Sequence record: NC_031934.1 | DNA length: 64,000 bases | Strand: one strand, 5' to 3' | Source: Escherichia phage MX01 | In this document: positions 1 to 7,747 of the stretch, in pieces | How positions within the stretch are numbered: the first letter of the stretch is position 1 | Layout of the letters: every line of letters starts with the position of its first letter | Position numbers and translations under genes: made by a program | Notes under the pieces: generated by a model | Told to the model about the DNA's origin: nothing | The model's input: only the letters and a program-made list of their open reading frames with translations | The model's database searches: none

Positions 1-380
1 AGGTGGCGTTGAGCTTCAGCAACACCGGCACGGTCGAATTCGTCGATAACAATTACCTTACGCTTACCTTCGATAGATTTAGAAGATGCAAAACGAGTAA
101 GTTCATTACGAACGAAATCAATACGGCAGTCAGAACCGTTAACAAACAGCATGTCTGAATTTGTATCAGCACACAATGCTTTAGCTACGGTAGTTTTGCC
201 TGTGCCTGGTGAAGCAGAGACTAGGATAATGTTAGGGATTAGACCCTTATTAACAATGGCTTGGAGGGTTTCTTTATCATGTGCAGGCAGAATACACTCA
301 GATAAAGTACCTGGACGATATTTCTGTTCCCACATGAAGTCATTTTCATTAATAGTTAAACCATTTACCACTTTACTCAT
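1..380 (-). CDS. 44: clamp loader large subunit gp44 (partial; 3' end outside window)
   Basis: Minus-strand translation from ATG at 380 gives MSKVVNGL...ILVSASPGTGKTTVAKAL... with Walker A and VIVIDEFDR Walker B; RBS GAGGA upstream; T4 synteny next to gene 45. Confidence 0.85.
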   Translation of the reverse strand, partial: MSKVVNGLTINENDFMWEQKYRPGTLSECILPAHDKETLQAIVNKGLIPNIILVSASPGTGKTTVAKALCADTNSDMLFVNGSDCRIDFVRNELTRFASSKSIEGKRKVIVIDEFDRAGVAEAQRH

Positions 381-939
381 TATTATTTTCCTCATTAAAA
401 TGTTTAACAATTTTATTCAATTCGTTTGCAGAATAATTATATCCATAATTTTGTAAAAGCGTACTAAATCTACCCTTTTTAGGCATACCAAGTTCTATCC
501 AAATCTTACGGAGCTCTTCATAATTCTGCCATATTTCAGAGCGTTGCCATTTAGAGCAATTAAGCTTATGGCTTTCGGAAAATGTTCTTGATTTTCCGGT
601 CCTGGTGATAGACATCTTACGTTTAGATTCAGCACTGTGGAAATCTACACCACCTGGACCACCGGGAGCTTTATTAACACAACGTGAACCATACTTGGCA
701 ATACCTTCTTTAACAAGGGCCTCTTCAATAAGTTTGGCTTCTTTAAATGTATCCGTTTTGTGGACAACCTCAATACTAAACTCCCAAACACCAGGAGTTA
801 TAGCATTTTCTCGCTTGCATTTCTTAACAAATTTACCAGTACCATAATATTCTTCAGGAGTAACACGGTGCCTACCGAAATAATGGTAGACATCCTTAGT
901 TTTGGTATTTGTTATTGTATTATGATAGCAAATGTACAT
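373..939 (-). CDS. putative GIY-YIG-family homing endonuclease (seg-like), NUMOD3-like DNA-binding motif
   Basis: 188 aa; VYHYFGRH...YYGTG resembles GIY...YIG core; ESKRKMSITRTGKSR NUMOD3-like; paralogous to ORF 60888..61514; inserted between genes 45 and 44; start overlaps gp45 stop (TAATG). Confidence 0.4.
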   Translation of the reverse strand: MYICYHNTITNTKTKDVYHYFGRHRVTPEEYYGTGKFVKKCKRENAITPGVWEFSIEVVHKTDTFKEAKLIEEALVKEGIAKYGSRCVNKAPGGPGGVDFHSAESKRKMSITRTGKSRTFSESHKLNCSKWQRSEIWQNYEELRKIWIELGMPKKGRFSTLLQNYGYNYSANELNKIVKHFNEENNNE

Positions 940-1637
940 TAGAACGAGTGGCTTGAGCCTGCTTCCATAGCTAGTACGTAAGAAGCTTGTGAACCTTCAA
1001 ACTTAGCTGCGAAACGAGCATCTTGACCTTCACCGCGTGCCCATAACAATACATGGTAATCAGCCGGCATCATTTTCATATTAGTTTTGTTAATAATGAA
1101 TTTGAATTCAGGGCCATCATGGTCTGCAACCACTAAGGAATACAACGGTCGAGTCAATTCTTTATCGTCAACTTGTTTATAACCGTTGATAACGATTTTA
1201 CCATTGTCTGTAGTGATTGCAAATGTATCAATACTCAATCCAGAGGATACACGCATCAGTTGCTGGTAGTCTTCAGCTTTAAGGTCAAAAATAACTTCAG
1301 CGACCGGGAATGGAATCTTTTTGCTTGGGAATGCAATTGTGCTTGGGTCGGCAATAGGCCACTTAATAGTTGAACGTTGGTCTTTAATAATTAAAGTGGT
1401 TTGGTCTTCACTTACCGAAACTTCAGCACTTTCAGATACCAAAGACAGAATACTTAAGAAACCGTTCAGGTCATAGATTGCGGCTTCGATATCAAAGGTA
1501 TCGGATACGGTAGCTTCACCATAACTTGCACCTGTTACAGAACGAGTTAGAATAGTGTTACCAGGTTTAAGCATGATACCTGGATTAATACCGGAGAAGT
1601 TTTTCAGAATGTTCAGAGTTTCTTTAGAGAATTTCAT
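939..1637 (-). CDS. 45: sliding clamp gp45
   Basis: 232 aa, collinear similarity to T4 gp45 (…IYDLNGFL…KFEG…); RBS AAGGA. Confidence 0.9.
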   Translation of the reverse strand: MKFSKETLNILKNFSGINPGIMLKPGNTILTRSVTGASYGEATVSDTFDIEAAIYDLNGFLSILSLVSESAEVSVSEDQTTLIIKDQRSTIKWPIADPSTIAFPSKKIPFPVAEVIFDLKAEDYQQLMRVSSGLSIDTFAITTDNGKIVINGYKQVDDKELTRPLYSLVVADHDGPEFKFIINKTNMKMMPADYHVLLWARGEGQDARFAAKFEGSQASYVLAMEAGSSHSF

Positions 1638-1662
1638 AATGTTTCCTTATCAAGTCAAATTA

Positions 1663-2118
1663 TTAAGCAATAACGATCATTTGTTTACGAATGGATTCAG
1701 GCAGAGATTCAATATACTCTGGAATCTGGGAAGCAACAATAGCACCGGCTTCAAGCAGTTGTTCGTCAAAATCTACGCAATAATCATCTTCGAGACGTTC
1801 AGAACCATCACGGTCGATAACCAGTTTAGCACCTGCGGCCAGTGAATCATTATAGTGGCGACGCATAATTTCTACCCACTTATCGGATACGTCGTTATCA
1901 ATGATACCGTAGAGCATGAACTTAGTTTCTTGTGGAAGAGACTGCAGACGACGTGCAGAGTTGGTATCAATATTCAGTACCCATGATTTACGGATACGGT
2001 TTTGATTATGTGGGTTGGAATCAGTACGGATAGTTTTAACTTGGATATCTTTAACAGTAATAGCGTTAGCAAACATAATATTTTCTCTCATTTGGTTGGT
2101 AAATGTATTATAAATCAA
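1663..2118 (-). CDS. hypothetical early protein at the T4 rpbA position
   Basis: 151-aa ORF; assignment by position only; true start may be an internal Met. Confidence 0.35.
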   Translation of the reverse strand: MIYNTFTNQMRENIMFANAITVKDIQVKTIRTDSNPHNQNRIRKSWVLNIDTNSARRLQSLPQETKFMLYGIIDNDVSDKWVEIMRRHYNDSLAAGAKLVIDRDGSERLEDDYCVDFDEQLLEAGAIVASQIPEYIESLPESIRKQMIVIA

Positions 2119-2138
2119 TATTTTAAAGCATTTAACGT

Positions 2139-2333
2139 TTAATCGAAGTATTCATAAACGAACCAGGCAGGGTTCCTGTTCGACATGATTCTATCATACT
2201 CTGACTTAAAAGCATTTCGGAGATAATCTTCAGTAACAAGATGTTCGTCACCAGAGAAGTTGTTGACTAAAACATACCGCTTTAGTTCAGGAACGGCCAA
2301 CAAATGCTGGCCTGTTATAAAATTGGAAGCCAT
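2139..2333 (-). CDS. hypothetical small protein (T4 45.2 position)
   Basis: 64-aa ORF, position between rpbA-like ORF and gene 46. Confidence 0.4.
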   Translation of the reverse strand: MASNFITGQHLLAVPELKRYVLVNNFSGDEHLVTEDYLRNAFKSEYDRIMSNRNPAWFVYEYFD

Positions 2334-2376
2334 ATAAATATCTTTATCGGTCGCTGTATCAAATAAGGATTTGATA

Positions 2377-3093
2377 ATGAATTATAAATCAATATACGAA
2401 AAGCTTATTCAACGAGCAGTTAATAGAAATTTAACTACCTATAAAGAACGTCATCACATTATACCACAATGCATGGGTGGAACGGACGACGCTTTAAACT
2501 TGGTAGACTTAACACCTGAAGAACATTACTTGGCTCATCAGTTGTTAGTTAAAATCCATCCAGATAATGCATCGTTAGTCTATGCGGCAAGAATGATGAC
2601 AGTTAGCTCACCAAAAGCTGATAGGTCTAAAAATAAATTATTTGGATGGCTTCGTCGTAAGAATTCAGAAGCCCAAAAGGATAAAGAATTCTCGGAAGAA
2701 ACCAGAAAGAAAATGTCAATTTCCGCTTTAAAAAAGCCTAGAGTTACCTGTCCACACTGCGGTAAAACTGGATTGGTAGGCAATATGAACAGATGGCATT
2801 TCGATAACTGCCCTAAAGGCCCTAATAAAGTAGACCGCTCTATATCTGAAGAGCAAAAATTAAAAATAAAGAAAGGCCTAGAAAACATGGTCCATAAAAT
2901 TGTGGAATGTGAATTCTGTGGCCTTTCAGGAAAATCCTGTGTTATTGCCTCTCATAAAGTTTTTTGTAAGAAAAATCCTAACGGGCGCAAAAAAACAGAA
3001 AAGAAGGTAGAATGCCCTCATTGTGGTAAACAAGGGAATTCCGGTAATATGAATCGTTGGCATTTCGATAACTGTAAAATGAAGCCTCAATAA
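2377..3093 (+). CDS. HNH homing endonuclease (mob-like) with NUMOD3 motif and two Cys4 zinc-ribbon repeats
   Basis: ERHHIIPQCMGGTDDALNLVDLTPEEHYLAH HNH motif; FSEETRKKMS NUMOD3; duplicated CPHCGK...NMNRWHFDNC; RBS AAGGA 6 nt upstream of ATG 2377; opposite strand to all neighbours. Confidence 0.8.
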   Translation: MNYKSIYEKLIQRAVNRNLTTYKERHHIIPQCMGGTDDALNLVDLTPEEHYLAHQLLVKIHPDNASLVYAARMMTVSSPKADRSKNKLFGWLRRKNSEAQKDKEFSEETRKKMSISALKKPRVTCPHCGKTGLVGNMNRWHFDNCPKGPNKVDRSISEEQKLKIKKGLENMVHKIVECEFCGLSGKSCVIASHKVFCKKNPNGRKKTEKKVECPHCGKQGNSGNMNRWHFDNCKMKPQ

Positions 3094-3098
3094 GAGGC

Positions 3099-4781
3099 TT
3101 ATTCCATAATTGTAAATCGACCAACCTTTTTCATTTGTAAATGCTGACCATATGCTTGAGGGTCATGGTCCCTGTGGCTGATTATAAAAACATTACTGTC
3201 TTCAAGACTATTAAGAATACTTGCAATCGACTTAACAGCCTCAGCGTCAACTGCTCCATCAAAAACTTCATCCAACACTAATGTACTAATGTGGACTCCA
3301 CTGACTTTTTCAGCAATATCACGCCAGGTAAAAAGTAGTGCGATATCAATACGTGCTTTCTCACCCTGTGAAAATGAAGCATAACTAAAGTCTTCACGTC
3401 CACGTGATTTAATCGTCTCATTGAACTCTTCGTCTAGTGTAAAGACGTAGTCGGCTTCCATAATCTTCAAATAAGAATTTATCTGCTTATTAAAGATAGG
3501 AATGTATTTCTTAATAATGGAACCTTTAATACCGGTATCCTTCAACATTTCTGTCAGAATTCCACGATGGTATTTTTCCATTACCAGGGACGATTTGGTA
3601 GAGACGATTTTATCAAGCTCTGCTTGAAGCGTGGCAATCTCTTCGGCATTACTTACGAACTCAGCAGCGGCTTGGTCTATTAATACTTTAACTTTTTTAG
3701 CTTTCTCTACGGCAGTAATGGCTTGTTGCTTATGAGTAGCTATCTGAGATTTAATAGCCAGCGCTTTATTACGTTGTTCGGTTACTTGGTCCTTAATGAG
3801 CTTGAGTTCTTGGTACTGCTCATTAATCTTATCCAAAGATTTTTGAAGTTCAAAGTTCTTGTCCTTAATTTTAGTAAGGATATTTCCATGCTCTTCTAAT
3901 CCTTGCATACACGTAGGACAACTACCACCGGTTTCGTATAATTTCACGACCTTAGTAAAGGTTGCCATATCATTCTTGATTGCAAACCCTTTATTACTCA
4001 GGTCACTCATAGAGTCGCTAGGGTCATCATCGACAATGACATTGAGTAATTCATCAGTTAGTTTTTCTATATTGCCTTTCGCAGTCCTGGCTTCTTTAAC
4101 GAGCTCGTCATACATTACTTGTAGTCGTGCTGCGTTCTCGCCGGATAATTTACGTTGACGTTCTTCGTTGTCATTATAAATTTTAATCTGTTGGGTAATA
4201 GAATCCTGTTTAACGTCGATTACTTGGATTTGGCTATTAGTCTCACGAATCAAAGATTTGTTCAACTTATCCATATCCGCTAATACAGAAACCTCTAAGA
4301 GGTCTTCGACAAGTTTTCTTCTTGCAGGAGTGGATAGGCCCATAAAAGGGGTATATCCAGCTGTCCCGAGTACGACAATCTGTTTGAAGCTTGTGTAGGA
4401 CATTCCGATAAGCTGTTCAAATTCCGCTTGGAAGTCTTTACTGCTGGCAGATTCATCAAGACGTTCACCGTCACAAGAGATTTCAAAAACGTTGGGTTTT
4501 TGCCCGCGTTTGATGTAGTATTCTTTGCCATCATATTCCATCCACAGTTCGACCAAAAGGTCTTTCTTATTACTTGAGTTAATCAACTGCCCTTTCTTAA
4601 CATCGCGAAAAGGCTTACCAAACAGAGCAAATGTTACGGCTTCAAGGAATGTTGATTTCCCTGCACCATTTTTACCAGTGACTAAGGTCTTTTGGACCTT
4701 ATCAAGTTGGATTGTAATAGGTTGCTGGCCTACCGACATAATATTTTTATACGTTACTTTCTTTAACTTAAAAGTCTTCAT
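3099..4781 (-). CDS. 46: recombination endonuclease subunit gp46 (SbcC/Rad50-like ATPase)
   Basis: Start at MKTFKLKK; Walker A GKNGAGKST, signature SQGEKARIDIALLF, Walker B LVLDEVFDG; length ~560 aa. Confidence 0.9.
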   Translation of the reverse strand: MKTFKLKKVTYKNIMSVGQQPITIQLDKVQKTLVTGKNGAGKSTFLEAVTFALFGKPFRDVKKGQLINSSNKKDLLVELWMEYDGKEYYIKRGQKPNVFEISCDGERLDESASSKDFQAEFEQLIGMSYTSFKQIVVLGTAGYTPFMGLSTPARRKLVEDLLEVSVLADMDKLNKSLIRETNSQIQVIDVKQDSITQQIKIYNDNEERQRKLSGENAARLQVMYDELVKEARTAKGNIEKLTDELLNVIVDDDPSDSMSDLSNKGFAIKNDMATFTKVVKLYETGGSCPTCMQGLEEHGNILTKIKDKNFELQKSLDKINEQYQELKLIKDQVTEQRNKALAIKSQIATHKQQAITAVEKAKKVKVLIDQAAAEFVSNAEEIATLQAELDKIVSTKSSLVMEKYHRGILTEMLKDTGIKGSIIKKYIPIFNKQINSYLKIMEADYVFTLDEEFNETIKSRGREDFSYASFSQGEKARIDIALLFTWRDIAEKVSGVHISTLVLDEVFDGAVDAEAVKSIASILNSLEDSNVFIISHRDHDPQAYGQHLQMKKVGRFTIME

Positions 4782-5031
4782 CGTTATAAGCATCCTTGAT
4801 GCATGATTCGGCCATATGAATTAATGTTTCTGGAGTATCATCTACCATTACATTAAAGCTAAATTCCACAGCCCAATCAGTAGCAACATAAACTTTAATA
4901 AGCTCGTTGGTATCACGAGTGCTCACAGCTTCAAACCAGAACTTAATTGTACTAGGTTGTCCATCGTCATCAATAACGATACAGTCGTGTTCTAGTTCAA
5001 GGCCTGATTTTTTAAATTCATCTAAAGTCAT
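4768..5031 (-). CDS. hypothetical protein
   Basis: 87-aa acidic ORF between genes 47 and 46, overlapping gp46 start. Confidence 0.35.
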   Translation of the reverse strand: MTLDEFKKSGLELEHDCIVIDDDGQPSTIKFWFEAVSTRDTNELIKVYVATDWAVEFSFNVMVDDTPETLIHMAESCIKDAYNDEDF

Positions 5032-6050
5032 CGTGTAACCTCATTATAAAGTTGTGCAGCCATAGTCTTAAGGGCTTTAACATCGTCTTCAGTGTGGCCA
5101 TCAGGAAGGGCATCGATATAATCATACATCATATCCAAGAGGGACTTAACTTCATCTTCCTCTTCAGAATCATCGATATCAACACTGTTATCTACCTTAG
5201 ACACGATACGTAAAGAGTGGACAACCTTTTCAAGCTCTGATTCGAACTTAGTAAGACCGTCATCAATTTTATCGACTATAACACGAACTGCGATATTTGT
5301 AAAATCTTTGTAATCGATAGTCGCGTTAGGATAATGAATCTTACGGTGCCAACAGGTTTCATTGATGATGAAATCCATCTTATGAGTTTCTGTATCAAAA
5401 ATCCAGAAGCCTCGAGGGTCGTTCTCATCACCGGCAGTCAAGGTCCATGGTGTACCGATATACTTAACGTTTGCTGCATCAGAAATAGTGTGGAAGTGGC
5501 CTGACCAAACCTGCTTATACTTCTTAAGGAAATCAGGTTCTAAACCATGAGATTTCATTCCTTTATAGAAATAGAAACCATTTAATTCCCAGTGACCAAT
5601 ACAAAAATCTGCTGTGGTATTTTTGATATGCTCCATGATATCAGTCGTGTTTTCTTCACACATCCATGGAATCAAATCAATTTCGGTGCCATCAAAGTTA
5701 ACCGTAGTAGGTTTCTCAATAACCTTGATATGCTCATATTTACCCAGAACTTCAGAAGCAGCGTTCGGAGTCAAGGTATTTTTGTAGTGCATATCATGGT
5801 TACCAACAATGGTATACATGGTAATGCCATTTTCTTTAAGCAAATCTGAAATATGTCTGGCAAATTCCATGCACTTATGAGTAATTGCTTTACGAACATC
5901 AAAAATATCACCATACTGAATCCAGACAGTGATACCGTTTGCTTTAGAATAATTGATGGCGTCTTTAATGCCTGCCAATTGAATATTTTGCACCCAAGGG
6001 TCATCGTTCTTAACTCCAAGGTGCCAGTCACCTGTGTTTAGTATTTTCAT
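5028..6050 (-). CDS. 47: recombination nuclease subunit gp47 (SbcD/Mre11-like phosphoesterase)
   Basis: MKILNTGDWHLG...GNHD...GHWE...GHFH calcineurin-like motifs; start set at internal ATG 6050. Confidence 0.9.
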   Translation of the reverse strand: MKILNTGDWHLGVKNDDPWVQNIQLAGIKDAINYSKANGITVWIQYGDIFDVRKAITHKCMEFARHISDLLKENGITMYTIVGNHDMHYKNTLTPNAASEVLGKYEHIKVIEKPTTVNFDGTEIDLIPWMCEENTTDIMEHIKNTTADFCIGHWELNGFYFYKGMKSHGLEPDFLKKYKQVWSGHFHTISDAANVKYIGTPWTLTAGDENDPRGFWIFDTETHKMDFIINETCWHRKIHYPNATIDYKDFTNIAVRVIVDKIDDGLTKFESELEKVVHSLRIVSKVDNSVDIDDSEEEDEVKSLLDMMYDYIDALPDGHTEDDVKALKTMAAQLYNEVTR

Positions 6051-6232
6051 AAGCCAAGCGCCGTTATCGCAGTGCAAAATAAAATTATTGAAATGAACCC
6101 GTCAGGAGTGGAAAAGAATCCTATCCAACAAGCTCGTGTGAATGTATAGAATGCCATTAATAGCACGACATATCCTAAAAATAATTCCATATGTTCTCCT
6201 CAGTTTAGACTATTGTACTCCGATATACATAA

Positions 6233-6258
6233 AGCAAAAAAGGAGCCTAAGCTCCTTT
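6233..6258 (-). terminator. rho-independent terminator-like hairpin (AAAGGAGC/GCTCCTTT stem, T-run on minus strand)
   Basis: Perfect 8-bp inverted repeat with 4-nt loop followed by TTTTTTG on minus strand. Confidence 0.45.
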
Positions 6259-6420
6259 ACCAACTAATACACCATACAGAGGTTCACGTGAAGATTTGAA
6301 CTTAATAGGCTTATATGTAATAGTACCTTCATTTTCTGATTTAATACGAGCGGCTTCAAATTGAAGAATCATCTCGTTTTTGTCAGATTTAATCTTATCA
6401 AAATCCGTCGAATTCGTCAT
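6247..6420 (-). CDS. hypothetical small protein (below 60-aa track cutoff)
   Basis: Manual minus-strand translation MTNSTDFDKIKSDKNEMILQFEAARIKSENEG..., stop inside the hairpin. Confidence 0.25.
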   Translation of the reverse strand: MTNSTDFDKIKSDKNEMILQFEAARIKSENEGTITYKPIKFKSSREPLYGVLVGKGA

Positions 6421-6975: not shown

Positions 6976-7206
6976 TTAATCCTTTGGAGTCAATTCAATA
7001 GTGAAGTAGAAATTAGCGTTCTCAACATGATAACGATAATCTACGTTATTGTCAGGAGAAGTGAATTCGATATTCCTGACGTTAAGTGGGTCAATATCAA
7101 TAGGAAGGCCTTTAACATCCCGTAATATCAATTTAATAAAATAAGGGAGTGCTTCGAAGTCTTCCATTCCATCTAAAAGTGGAGTGATATTAATCTGATG
7201 TTCCAT
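6976..7206 (-). CDS. hypothetical protein
   Basis: ORF downstream of gene 55; start set at internal Met (MEHQ...). Confidence 0.3.
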
Positions 7207-7747
7207 ATAAAAAATCCAGTTCACCAACTTTAGGTTCGGCACTCTTATCAGACCCTGGTGCTTTAGTTAAAGAGGTTTCATACTGAGTCATTTTGTCGTA
7301 GATATCTTGGATAAAGGTTTCATCTGCAATACCTACCATGTCGTCATCATTACTGTCATAGACATTATGGACGAAGTAGCTATATTTCTTTGCCATTTCT
7401 TTACGTTCTTTTTTGATACGCTGAACGAAGGCATTAAAACAAGCCATAGTGATATATGCATGTGGGTTGTCGTATTTTGTTTCGTCGAAATTGTGAAGAC
7501 CTTTAATCGAAGCTTCGATTCCATCAGCTATCATTTCCTGCCGCCAAGATTGGGTATATCCTGAGAAGTTGAAACGCTTGCTGAGGCCTTCTGCTATAAG
7601 CATAATAGCCAATCCTATAGTATCATTTTGTCTAATGATTTTATTAGGGTCGGTGTTAGCATATAATTCCTGCTTCCAACTTGTAATAGCTTTAAGAAGC
7701 TCCTTGTTATTTACATAATTATTTTTAGTCAGTTTAATTTTGGTCAT
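7190..7747 (-). CDS. 55: late-transcription sigma factor gp55
   Basis: 185 aa; NYVNNKELL...[28 protein letters not shown]...NPHAYIT...VHNVYDS collinear with T4 gp55. Confidence 0.85.

What the first reader, a model, noticed from the sequence alone, without database searches (positions are those of the whole stretch)
2377..3093. Opposite-strand HNH homing endonuclease between 45.2 and gene 46
This is the only plus-strand gene in 43 kb of minus-strand early genes. It has a clear HNH motif (HHIIP…N…H..H), a NUMOD3 motif and two CPHCGK…NMNRWHFDNC zinc-ribbon repeats, the architecture of freestanding mob-type endonucleases. Its transcription opposes the recombination-gene operon.
Basis: partly seen in the sequence, partly recalled or inferred. 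Interest (0 to 1): 0.45.

Follow-up and report, generated by a model that had tools for sequence, protein, structure and literature searches.

The report
Mob-type homing endonuclease beside gene 46
This is a real but ordinary selfish gene, a free-standing HNH "homing" nuclease of the phage T4 Mob family, inserted backwards between two conserved genes of a T4-like coliphage; comparison with relatives suggests it has recently copied itself, with a piece of the neighbouring gene, into a related phage.

Summary
The ORF is real: window 2377..3093 (+), 238 aa, in a JS98-type T4-like phage (Dhakavirus), between gene 45.2 and gene 46.

- **Family.** Its N-terminal 116 aa are 46-48% identical to T4 MobE and MobB. 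The HNH residues H26/H27, N41, H50 and H54 are invariant in 79 homologues.
- **C-terminal half.** It carries three CX2CX11-12HX3C zinc fingers homologous to the two DNA-binding fingers of I-TevIII.
- **Pfam.** HNH and NUMOD3 scores for this protein alone are below threshold. The assignment rests on homologues.
- **Distribution.** The same 238-aa gene sits at the same site and in the same reversed orientation in several T4-like genera. It is absent from JS98, QL01, PSD2002 and T4.
- **Linked tract.** Genomes with the gene carry a foreign ~235-nt 3' end of gene 46: 67-74% identical to congeners without it, against 98-99% just beyond.
- **Natural mosaic.** Phage IME281 is a JS98-like backbone carrying exactly the window's block 2292..3336. 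That looks like a homing and co-conversion product.
- **Expression signals (inferred).** A T4 late-promoter box (TATAAATA, 2333-2340) lies 36 nt upstream of the ATG. A hairpin spans the two convergent stop codons.

Public records already annotate near-identical copies as a "mob-like endonuclease". Interest is low.

The parts
2292..3336 (.). Whole mobile block as delimited in nature: the mob gene with its control signals, the first ~40 nt of gene 45.2 and the last ~235 nt of gene 46
   Evidence: At sites where the window and JS98 differ, IME281 follows JS98 almost everywhere. It follows the window at 74 consecutive sites from 2292 to 3336. The left switch lies between 2285 and 2292, the right switch between 3336 and 3426.
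2333..2340 (+). TATAAATA, a match to the T4 late-promoter -10 consensus, 36 nt upstream of the mob ATG. Its first T is the complement of the A of the 45.2 start codon.
   Evidence: The box count in the window equals chance (8 against 7.8 expected), but 6 of the 8 boxes lie 21-36 nt upstream of a same-strand ORF start (P about 7e-8). A TATAAATA or CATAAATA box is kept upstream of the gene in all 9 loci compared. Function is inferred, not tested.
2364..2368 (+). Shine-Dalgarno-like AAGGA, 8 nt before the ATG
   Evidence: Read directly from the sequence. An AAGG core is kept in eight of the nine loci compared; pzk-kv8 has TAGGAAG.
2377..3093 (+). mob-like gene, 238 aa plus the stop codon (TAA at 3091-3093)
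   Evidence: dN/dS between orthologues is 0.1-0.3. AlphaFold2 mean pLDDT is 93.5.
2446..2547 (+). HNH (beta-beta-alpha-metal) core, aa 24-57: E24, H26, H27, N41, H50, H54
   Evidence: These residues are invariant in 79 homologues. The model has strands at 24-27 and 42-45 and a helix at 47-60. T4 MobE is 46% and MobB 48% identical over aa 1-116.
2689..2736 (+). NUMOD3-like helix, aa 105-120 (FSEETRKKMSISALKK)
   Evidence: Pfam NUMOD3 gives E = 0.061 and 13.7 bits, below the 20.4 cut-off. 48 of the 79 aligned sequences match NUMOD3.
2749..2811 (+). Zinc finger 1: C125, C128, H141, C145 (CX2CX12HX3C)
   Evidence: The motif is as defined for I-TevIII in PMC1865063. One copy of direct repeat D1 lies at 2779-2810.
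2908..2967 (+). Zinc finger 2: C178, C181, H193, C197 (CX2CX11HX3C)
   Evidence: Aligns with I-TevIII finger 1. The model has two short strands followed by a helix.
3013..3075 (+). Zinc finger 3: C213, C216, H229, C233 (CX2CX12HX3C)
   Evidence: All four ligands are invariant in 79 homologues. It aligns with I-TevIII finger 2. The second copy of repeat D1 lies at 3043-3074.
3082..3100 (.). Hairpin AAGCCTC-AATAA-GAGGCTT. It spans the mob stop codon (3091-3093) and reaches into the gene 46 stop codon (3099-3101).
   Evidence: Folding energy is -10.6 kcal/mol on the + strand and -13.7 on the - strand, z about -2.5. The stem is kept in Dhakavirus, pzk-kv8 and F2, and G4498 has a different palindrome at the same place. 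A terminator or RNA-stabilising role is inferred.
3099..3336 (-). 3' end of gene 46, linked to the mob gene and heterologous to congeners without it. It encodes the Walker B and H-loop region of the Rad50-like protein and is the proposed location of the target site in mob-less genomes.
   Evidence: Identity to JS98, PSD2002 and QL01 is 67-74% over the last 240 nt, and 98-99.6% over the next 240 nt. Identity among mob-carrying Dhakaviruses is 97-100%. The same breakpoint, just after TGGCGTGATATTGCT, is seen in G4498 against T4.
2292..2333 (-). 5' end of gene 45.2 carried on the block. The start is MASNF instead of MSDF, and the ATGA overlap with the gene 46 stop codon is lost.

Best explanation
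The gene encodes a free-standing homing endonuclease of the T4 Mob (HNH) family.

**Shown by comparison**
- The N-terminal HNH domain is of the Mob type.
- The C-terminal half carries three zinc fingers of the I-TevIII type.
- The gene, its upstream signals and about 235 nt of the 3' end of gene 46 are inherited as one block. The block is present or absent at exactly one junction in T4-like phages and has moved between otherwise different genomes.

**Inferred mechanism**
- During mixed infection the zinc fingers and the NUMOD3 helix bind a sequence in the 3' part of gene 46 of a phage that lacks the gene.
- The HNH domain nicks or cuts there. The likely region is within about 230 nt of the insertion point, near the codons for WRDIA and Walker B.
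- The break is repaired by recombination from the mob-carrying genome. This copies in the gene and the intervening piece of gene 46.
- The many mostly synonymous differences in that piece protect the carrier from its own enzyme.

**Inferred expression**
- The gene is probably transcribed late from its own TATAAATA promoter.
- The transcript probably ends at, or is stabilised by, the hairpin between the two convergent stop codons.
- This would keep it apart in time from early and middle transcription of gene 46 on the other strand.
For: **Family membership**
- PHROG 655 'homing endonuclease' matches at 7.7e-69.
- blastp to T4 MobE gives 46% identity and E = 5e-30; MobB 48% and 3e-29; MobD 2e-21; MobC 2e-19. 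RB3 MobE gives 3e-25.
- All share the MNYxxIY N-terminus.
- The catalytic residues are invariant.
- Of the 79 aligned sequences, 46 match Pfam HNH and 48 match NUMOD3.

**Zinc fingers**
- Fingers 2 and 3 align with the two I-TevIII fingers at 35% identity, E = 1e-8.
- In I-TevIII those fingers bind zinc and are needed for DNA binding (PMC1865063).

**Selection**
- dN/dS is 0.1-0.3, and the nine orthologues compared are all 238 aa.

**Presence or absence at one site**
- Present in KIT01, Bp7, IME281, FB, P479, YenP8, pzk-kv8, F2 and G4498.
- Absent in JS98, PSD2002, QL01 and T4.
- In the Dhakaviruses that lack it, the gene 46 stop codon overlaps the 45.2 start codon.

**Linked foreign flank**
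- The foreign gene 46 tract and its sharp breakpoint appear.

**Natural mosaic**
- IME281 matches JS98 at 96-99% outside the block and the window at 99.6-100% inside it.

**Promoter**
- Box position and conservation support a late promoter.
- A gp55-like ORF lies at 7190..7747, where KIT01 and Bp7 annotate the late sigma factor gene 55.

**Precedent**
- T4 MobE nicks the neighbouring conserved gene about 120 nt inside it, with protective polymorphisms in carrier genomes (PMC2790892).
Against: - No enzymatic or genetic test was possible.
- Pfam HNH and NUMOD3 scores for this protein are below the curated cut-offs.
- No nucleotide position cleanly separates all mob-carrying from all mob-lacking gene 46 sequences in the 13-genome sample, so the target site is not pinned down.
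- The number of TATAAATA boxes in the window is what chance gives.
- The hairpin lacks a good T-run on the + strand.
- The mosaic could in principle come from ordinary recombination.
Confidence: 0.85

Rival explanations
1. The gene is a former homing endonuclease that no longer homes. It is kept for another reason, for example excluding competing phages or supplying signals for its neighbours. The mosaics would then come from ordinary recombination.
For: - Purifying selection shows only that the protein matters, not what it does.
- In carrier genomes the block supplies the start codon and upstream region of 45.2. Deleting the block would therefore damage 45.2, a retention effect described for T4 HEGs in PMC2988022.
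Against: - The catalytic residues and all zinc ligands are intact in every orthologue.
- The foreign tract is tied to gene presence in four comparisons: window against QL01, IME281 against JS98, FB against JS98, and G4498 against T4. Two of them share the same breakpoint.
Confidence: 0.1
2. The main role of the locus is antisense regulation. A late + strand transcript reads into gene 46, or uncouples 45.2 from gene 46, and so changes recombination-nuclease expression late in infection.
For: - The gene is convergent with gene 46, and the two stop codons are only 5 nt apart.
- The hairpin is a weak terminator on the + strand.
- The ATGA coupling between gene 46 and 45.2 is lost in carrier genomes.
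Against: - A 238-aa ORF under purifying selection with a complete nuclease architecture is not needed for an antisense RNA.
- rpbA and gene 45 have their own promoter-like site at 2107-2130.
- There are no expression data.
Confidence: 0.04
3. The ORF is a chance open frame on the antisense strand.
For: Many shadow ORFs of about 100 aa occur on the + strand of this region.
Against: - It does not overlap any - strand gene.
- It has 3425 homologues at E <= 0.001.
- It matches PHROG 655 at 7.7e-69.
- dN/dS is well below 1.
Confidence: 0.01

Closest known systems
T4 MobE and T4 MobB (free-standing HNH homing endonucleases; MobE studied in PMC2790892)
   Same: - The N-terminal about 116 aa are homologous (46-48% identity, E about 1e-29 to 1e-30), with the same MNYxxIY start, HHIIP...N...EH..AH motif and following NUMOD3-like helix.
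- The gene sits between conserved genes.
- The likely target lies inside the adjacent conserved gene, with protective polymorphisms in carrier genomes.
   Different: - T4 mob genes lie on the same strand as their neighbours, and mobE has no promoter of its own. This gene is reversed and has its own late-promoter box.
- The insertion site, 45.2/46, is empty in T4.
- The C-terminal DNA-binding half is unrelated to those of T4 MobB, C, D and E.
I-TevIII of phage RB3 (intron-encoded HNH endonuclease, PMC1865063)
   Same: Tandem CX2CX12-13HX3C zinc fingers at the C-terminus. Fingers 2-3 here align with I-TevIII fingers 1-2 at 35% identity, E = 1e-8. In I-TevIII these fingers bind zinc and DNA.
   Different: - I-TevIII is encoded inside the nrdB group I intron.
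- Its HNH domain gave no reported alignment with this protein in a direct comparison.
- It has two fingers, not three.
- Whether the present protein dimerises and makes a double-strand break, as I-TevIII does, is unknown.
T4 segD (free-standing GIY-YIG gene in antisense orientation between genes 23 and 24; reviewed in PMC2988022)
   Same: A free-standing endonuclease gene oriented against its neighbours. The reversed orientation therefore has a precedent.
   Different: - It belongs to a different nuclease family (GIY-YIG).
- No segD-specific promoter was found in T4, whereas a late-promoter box lies directly upstream here.
'HEG islands' of Barth et al. 2023 (PMC10448857)
   Same: A homing endonuclease gene at the boundary of a sharply delimited exchanged segment in an essential gene. 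In phage F2, gene 46 is bracketed by two HNH genes.
   Different: The exchanged tract here is about 1 kb, not more than 10 kb. In the window only one side of gene 46 carries an endonuclease gene.

Membership tests
T4 Mob-type free-standing HNH homing endonucleases | N-terminal catalytic domain homologous to T4 MobA-E | tested here: met
   blastp gives MobE 5e-30, MobB 3e-29, MobD 2e-21, MobC 2e-19 and the MobA remnant 1e-6. RB3 MobE gives 3e-25.
T4 Mob-type free-standing HNH homing endonucleases | HNH catalytic residues intact (His general base, Asn, metal-binding His) | tested here: met
   H26/H27, N41, H50 and H54 are present and invariant in 79 homologues. The nine orthologues compared keep them.
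T4 Mob-type free-standing HNH homing endonucleases | Free-standing gene between conserved genes, present or absent among close relatives at a precise site | tested here: met
   The insertion lies between the gene 46 stop and the 45.2 start. It is absent from JS98, PSD2002, QL01 and T4. It is present at the same site in 9 other phages examined.
T4 Mob-type free-standing HNH homing endonucleases | Co-conversion of flanking markers with the gene | tested here: met
   Shown by natural comparison only. The foreign ~235-nt end of gene 46 is linked to the gene. The IME281 mosaic covers 2292-3336.
T4 Mob-type free-standing HNH homing endonucleases | Site-specific nicking or cleavage of the allele lacking the gene, and preferential inheritance in mixed infection | not testable with these tools
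   This needs phage crosses and in vivo or in vitro cleavage mapping.
Pfam HNH (PF01844) / His-Me finger fold | Score at or above the curated gathering threshold | tested here: not met
   HNH scores 15.5 bits against a cut-off of 21.4. HNH_5 scores 15.2 against 27.5. 46 of the 79 aligned sequences match HNH at E < 0.01.
Pfam HNH (PF01844) / His-Me finger fold | Beta-beta-alpha-metal fold | tested here: inconclusive
NUMOD3 (PF07460) | Score at or above the gathering threshold | tested here: not met
   The score is 13.7 bits against 20.4, E = 0.061, on aa 96-125. 48 of the 79 aligned sequences match, the best at 1.7e-29. The motif is therefore probably present but degenerate here.
I-TevIII-type zinc-finger DNA-binding module | CX2CX12-13HX3C spacing and sequence homology to the I-TevIII fingers | tested here: met
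   There are three units, with spacers of 12, 11 and 12 residues. The alignment to the RB3 I-TevIII fingers gives E = 1e-8. The motif definition comes from PMC1865063.
I-TevIII-type zinc-finger DNA-binding module | Zinc binding, DNA binding and dimerisation | not testable with these tools
   This needs biochemistry.
T4 late (gp55-dependent) promoter | TATAAATA box at a suitable distance upstream of the gene | tested here: met
   The box is at 2333-2340, 36 nt before the ATG. Six of the 8 boxes in the window are similarly placed before ORFs. The box is conserved in relatives.
T4 late (gp55-dependent) promoter | Late transcript 5' end a few nucleotides downstream of the box | not testable with these tools
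   No transcript data are available.

The most novel reading that the evidence does not exclude
The DNA-binding fingers and the adjacent protected piece of gene 46 may evolve and move as one matched 'specificity plus immunity' unit.

- In phage FB the first 420 nt of the gene are 92-100% identical to the window.
- Fingers 2-3, together with the neighbouring end of gene 46, are replaced by a different version.

If so, such swaps would create endonuclease variants with new targets. These variants could home into genomes that already carry another variant.
Probability: 0.12. Interest if true: 0.45.

Novelty: new member of a known kind. Interest (0 to 1): 0.2.

Why it matters
- **It explains a local mosaic.** Part of an essential recombination gene (gene 46, the Rad50-like subunit) differs sharply between closely related phages. 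The locus offers a clean natural example of a homing product: IME281 equals a JS98-like backbone plus the block.
- **It gives a testable prediction for an unstudied enzyme.** The target should lie in the last ~230 nt of gene 46. The enzyme combines a Mob catalytic domain with I-TevIII-type fingers.
- **It opens no new question.** Near-identical copies are already labelled 'mob-like endonuclease' in GenBank.

Tried and rejected
- **PDB sequence search.** Only chance-level hits (E of 0.29 or more) to flavivirus envelope and zinc-finger proteins.
- **Whole-chain fold searches.** Nothing significant. The elongated multi-domain model matches helical repeats and C2H2 finger arrays non-specifically, and only short local HNH hits appear.
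- **I-TevI-style autorepression operator.** I looked for similarity between the conserved region upstream of the gene (2325-2380) and the mob-less 45.2/46 region of QL01, JS98 and T4. The best local score equals the shuffled mean, so this is rejected.
- **RBS-sequestering hairpin in the 5' leader (2357-2376).** Folding is no better than shuffles (z = 0.04), and from inspection of the sequences the pairing is not conserved. Rejected.
- **Sigma-70 or MotA-type promoter for the gene, or an embedded promoter on the opposite strand inside it.** None was found inside 2334-3098.
- **Diagnostic nucleotides fixed in all mob-less and absent from all mob-carrying gene 46 ends.** None was found in 13 genomes.
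- **First flank-identity script.** It timed out and was redone.

Full report
**Where the window comes from.** The first 7 kb match JS98-type T4-like coliphages (genus Dhakavirus) at 91-96% nucleotide identity. The closest records are Bp7, IME281 and KIT01. The rest of the window behaves the same way. The gene order around the finding is 44, a seg-like ORF, 45, rpbA, 45.2, the finding, 46, 46.2, 47.

**The observation.**
- An ORF runs 2377..3093 on the + strand and gives 238 aa. It starts at an ATG preceded by AAGGA.
- It is flanked by gene 45.2 (2139..2333, - strand, Pfam Gp45_2 at 2e-26) and gene 46 (3099..4793, - strand, SMC/Rad50-type ATPase hits).
- The HNH-type motif (ERHHIIP, N41, H50, H54) and the two CPHCGK...NMNRWHFDNC units are present.
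- The two units are also a 32-nt direct repeat in the DNA.
- There is a third, divergent finger at aa 178-197.
- The strand claim holds at the resolution available:
  - all large non-shadow ORFs from 373 to 43497 are on the - strand;
  - five of the larger other + strand ORFs have no PHROG hit, and two of them no NCBIfam hit either;
  - KIT01's annotation has this gene as the only + strand CDS between genes 43 and 53.

**What the protein is.**
- Curated Pfam models do not reach threshold on this sequence alone: HNH 15.5 bits against 21.4, NUMOD3 13.7 against 20.4.
- The family assignment is nevertheless firm:
  - PHROG 655 'homing endonuclease' matches at 7.7e-69;
  - 3425 database homologues exist;
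  - in an alignment of 79 of them the residues E24, H26, H27, P30, G35, N41, H50, H54 and the finger ligands C213, C216, H229, C233 are invariant;
  - 46 of the 79 match Pfam HNH and 48 match NUMOD3.
- Direct comparison with phage T4 shows that aa 1-116 are 46-48% identical to MobE and MobB. They are also clearly related to MobD, MobC and the MobA remnant.
- The C-terminal half is unrelated to those proteins. It aligns instead with the two zinc fingers of I-TevIII, both the T4 remnant and the full-length RB3 protein (35% identity, E = 1e-8).
- The finger spacing, CX2CX11-12HX3C, is the one shown for I-TevIII to bind zinc and to be required for DNA binding (PMC1865063).
- An AlphaFold2 model built on the alignment is confident (pLDDT 93.5). 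It shows a beta-beta-alpha unit at aa 24-60 and three small strand-strand-helix fingers.
- Whole-chain searches of solved structures gave only weak local matches to HNH domains and finger arrays. I count the fold evidence as consistent but not independent proof.

**Comparative anatomy of the locus.**
- The same 238-aa gene lies at the same junction, in the same reversed orientation, in these phages:
  - Dhakavirus: KIT01, Bp7, IME281 and FB;
  - Gaprivervirus: P479;
  - Tequatrovirus: F2 and G4498;
  - Yersinia phage P8;
  - Klebsiella phage pzk-kv8.
- In total about 186 phage records hold a copy at least 60% identical.
- It is missing from JS98, PSD2002, QL01 and T4.
- In the three Dhakaviruses without it, the stop codon of gene 46 overlaps the start codon of 45.2 (ATGA).
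- The insert replaces the first codons of 45.2 (MASNF for MSDF) and the gene 46 stop codon (TAA for TGA).
- Orthologues differ by up to about 35% in protein sequence, yet all are 238 aa with dN/dS of 0.1-0.3.

**Evidence that it moves.**
- Against mob-less Dhakaviruses, the last 240 nt of the window's gene 46 are only 67-74% identical. The next 240 nt are 98-99.6% identical.
- Over the last 120 codons, the window and QL01 differ at 38 synonymous and 10 non-synonymous codons.
- Among the mob-carrying Dhakaviruses KIT01, Bp7 and IME281 the same tract is 97-100% identical to the window.
- The switch happens just after an invariant TGGCGTGATATTGCT (codons WRDIA). This lies between the ABC signature and Walker B motifs of the Rad50-like protein.
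- The same switch point separates mob-carrying G4498 from T4, which are 98% identical further on.
- IME281 gives the clearest evidence:
  - at sites where the window and JS98 differ, it follows JS98 almost everywhere from 936 to 5187;
  - it follows the window at 74 consecutive sites from 2292 to 3336;
  - it is, in effect, a JS98-like genome that received the block.
- This is the pattern expected from homing with co-conversion. It resembles what was shown experimentally for T4 MobE, which nicks about 120 nt inside the adjacent nrdB gene of T2 and co-converts the flank (PMC2790892).
- From the asymmetry (about 40 nt into 45.2 against about 235 nt into gene 46), I infer that the target lies in the 3' part of gene 46. 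No single diagnostic nucleotide could be found in 13 genomes.

**Expression signals (inferred).**
- A perfect T4 late-promoter box, TATAAATA, lies at 2333-2340, 36 nt before the ATG.
- The total number of such boxes in the window is what chance gives. However, six of the eight lie 21-36 nt upstream of a same-strand ORF start (P about 7e-8). These include genes 53, 4 and e, named by correspondence with the KIT01 annotation.
- A TATAAATA or CATAAATA box and the following leader are conserved upstream of the gene in all loci compared.
- A gp55-like ORF lies at 7190..7747, at the position where KIT01 and Bp7 annotate the late sigma factor gene 55.
- A 7-bp hairpin (3082-3100) covers the mob stop codon and touches the gene 46 stop codon. 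It is moderately stable on both strands (z about -2.5) and is conserved or replaced by another palindrome in relatives.
- On the - strand, a MotA-type middle-promoter-like site sits at 2107-2130, just upstream of rpbA. So only the small gene 45.2 depends on transcription that crosses the insert.
- A reversed free-standing endonuclease gene has a precedent in T4 segD (PMC2988022).

**Comparison with what is known, and verdict.**
- The element works like, and by sequence belongs to, the Mob class of free-standing HNH homing endonucleases.
- It differs from the five T4 genes in four ways: insertion site, reversed orientation, its own late-promoter box, and an I-TevIII-type three-finger DNA-binding half.
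- JS98 and JS10 were listed as having no homing endonuclease genes in 2010 (PMC2993671), so this gene is a later-seen acquisition within the genus.
- GenBank annotators already call it 'mob-like endonuclease' (KIT01) or 'homing endonuclease' (RefSeq). I found no paper that studies this locus.
- It is a new, uncharacterised member of a well-known kind.

Noticed in passing
window 373..939 (- strand): A second endonuclease-like gene (188 aa) lies between genes 44 and 45. It matches PHROG 314 'homing endonuclease' at 8.5e-16 and has a weak NUMOD3 hit. It is present in Bp7 and PSD2002 at only 66-88% nucleotide identity and is absent from KIT01, JS98, IME281 and QL01. It is another presence/absence polymorphic element.
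   Followed up: partly
window 4768..4793 (junction of genes 46 and 46.2): Gene 46.1 is missing in the window, KIT01 and IME281. It is present in JS98, PSD2002, QL01 and Bp7. In phage F2 the same position holds an HNH endonuclease gene, so gene 46 there is bracketed by two endonuclease genes.
   Followed up: no
window 5701..6300 (5' end of gene 47 and the region beyond it): Identity to KIT01 and Bp7 falls to 55-79% here, while QL01 stays at 94-99% up to about 6000. KIT01 carries an extra 771-bp ORF and QL01 an annotated HNH endonuclease just beyond gene 47. This may be another endonuclease-associated mosaic boundary.
   Followed up: no
L004 (Bp7) 4789..6289: Gene 46 of Bp7 is annotated in pieces. 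Its translation shows stop codons and frameshifts exactly in the Walker B region, at the edge of the mob-linked tract. This could be sequencing error or a damaged essential gene; I did not resolve which.
   Followed up: no
L006 (FB) 1501..2217 and the adjacent end of gene 46: The FB copy of the gene is chimeric. Its nt 1-420 are 92-100% identical to the window, while nt 450-717 (fingers 2-3) are 50-79% identical. The adjacent end of gene 46 is also of a different type.
   Followed up: partly
window 2107..2130 (- strand): The sequence TGCTTTAAAATATTGATTTATAAT combines a MotA box with a -10 element, a good T4 middle-promoter match, between 45.2 and rpbA. The pattern is enriched in the window overall: 24 matches against 10.6 expected.
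   Followed up: no
L009 (G4498) 1249..1500: An intact 45.2 homologue with a GTG start and a GGAGG ribosome-binding site is not annotated in the RefSeq record.
   Followed up: no
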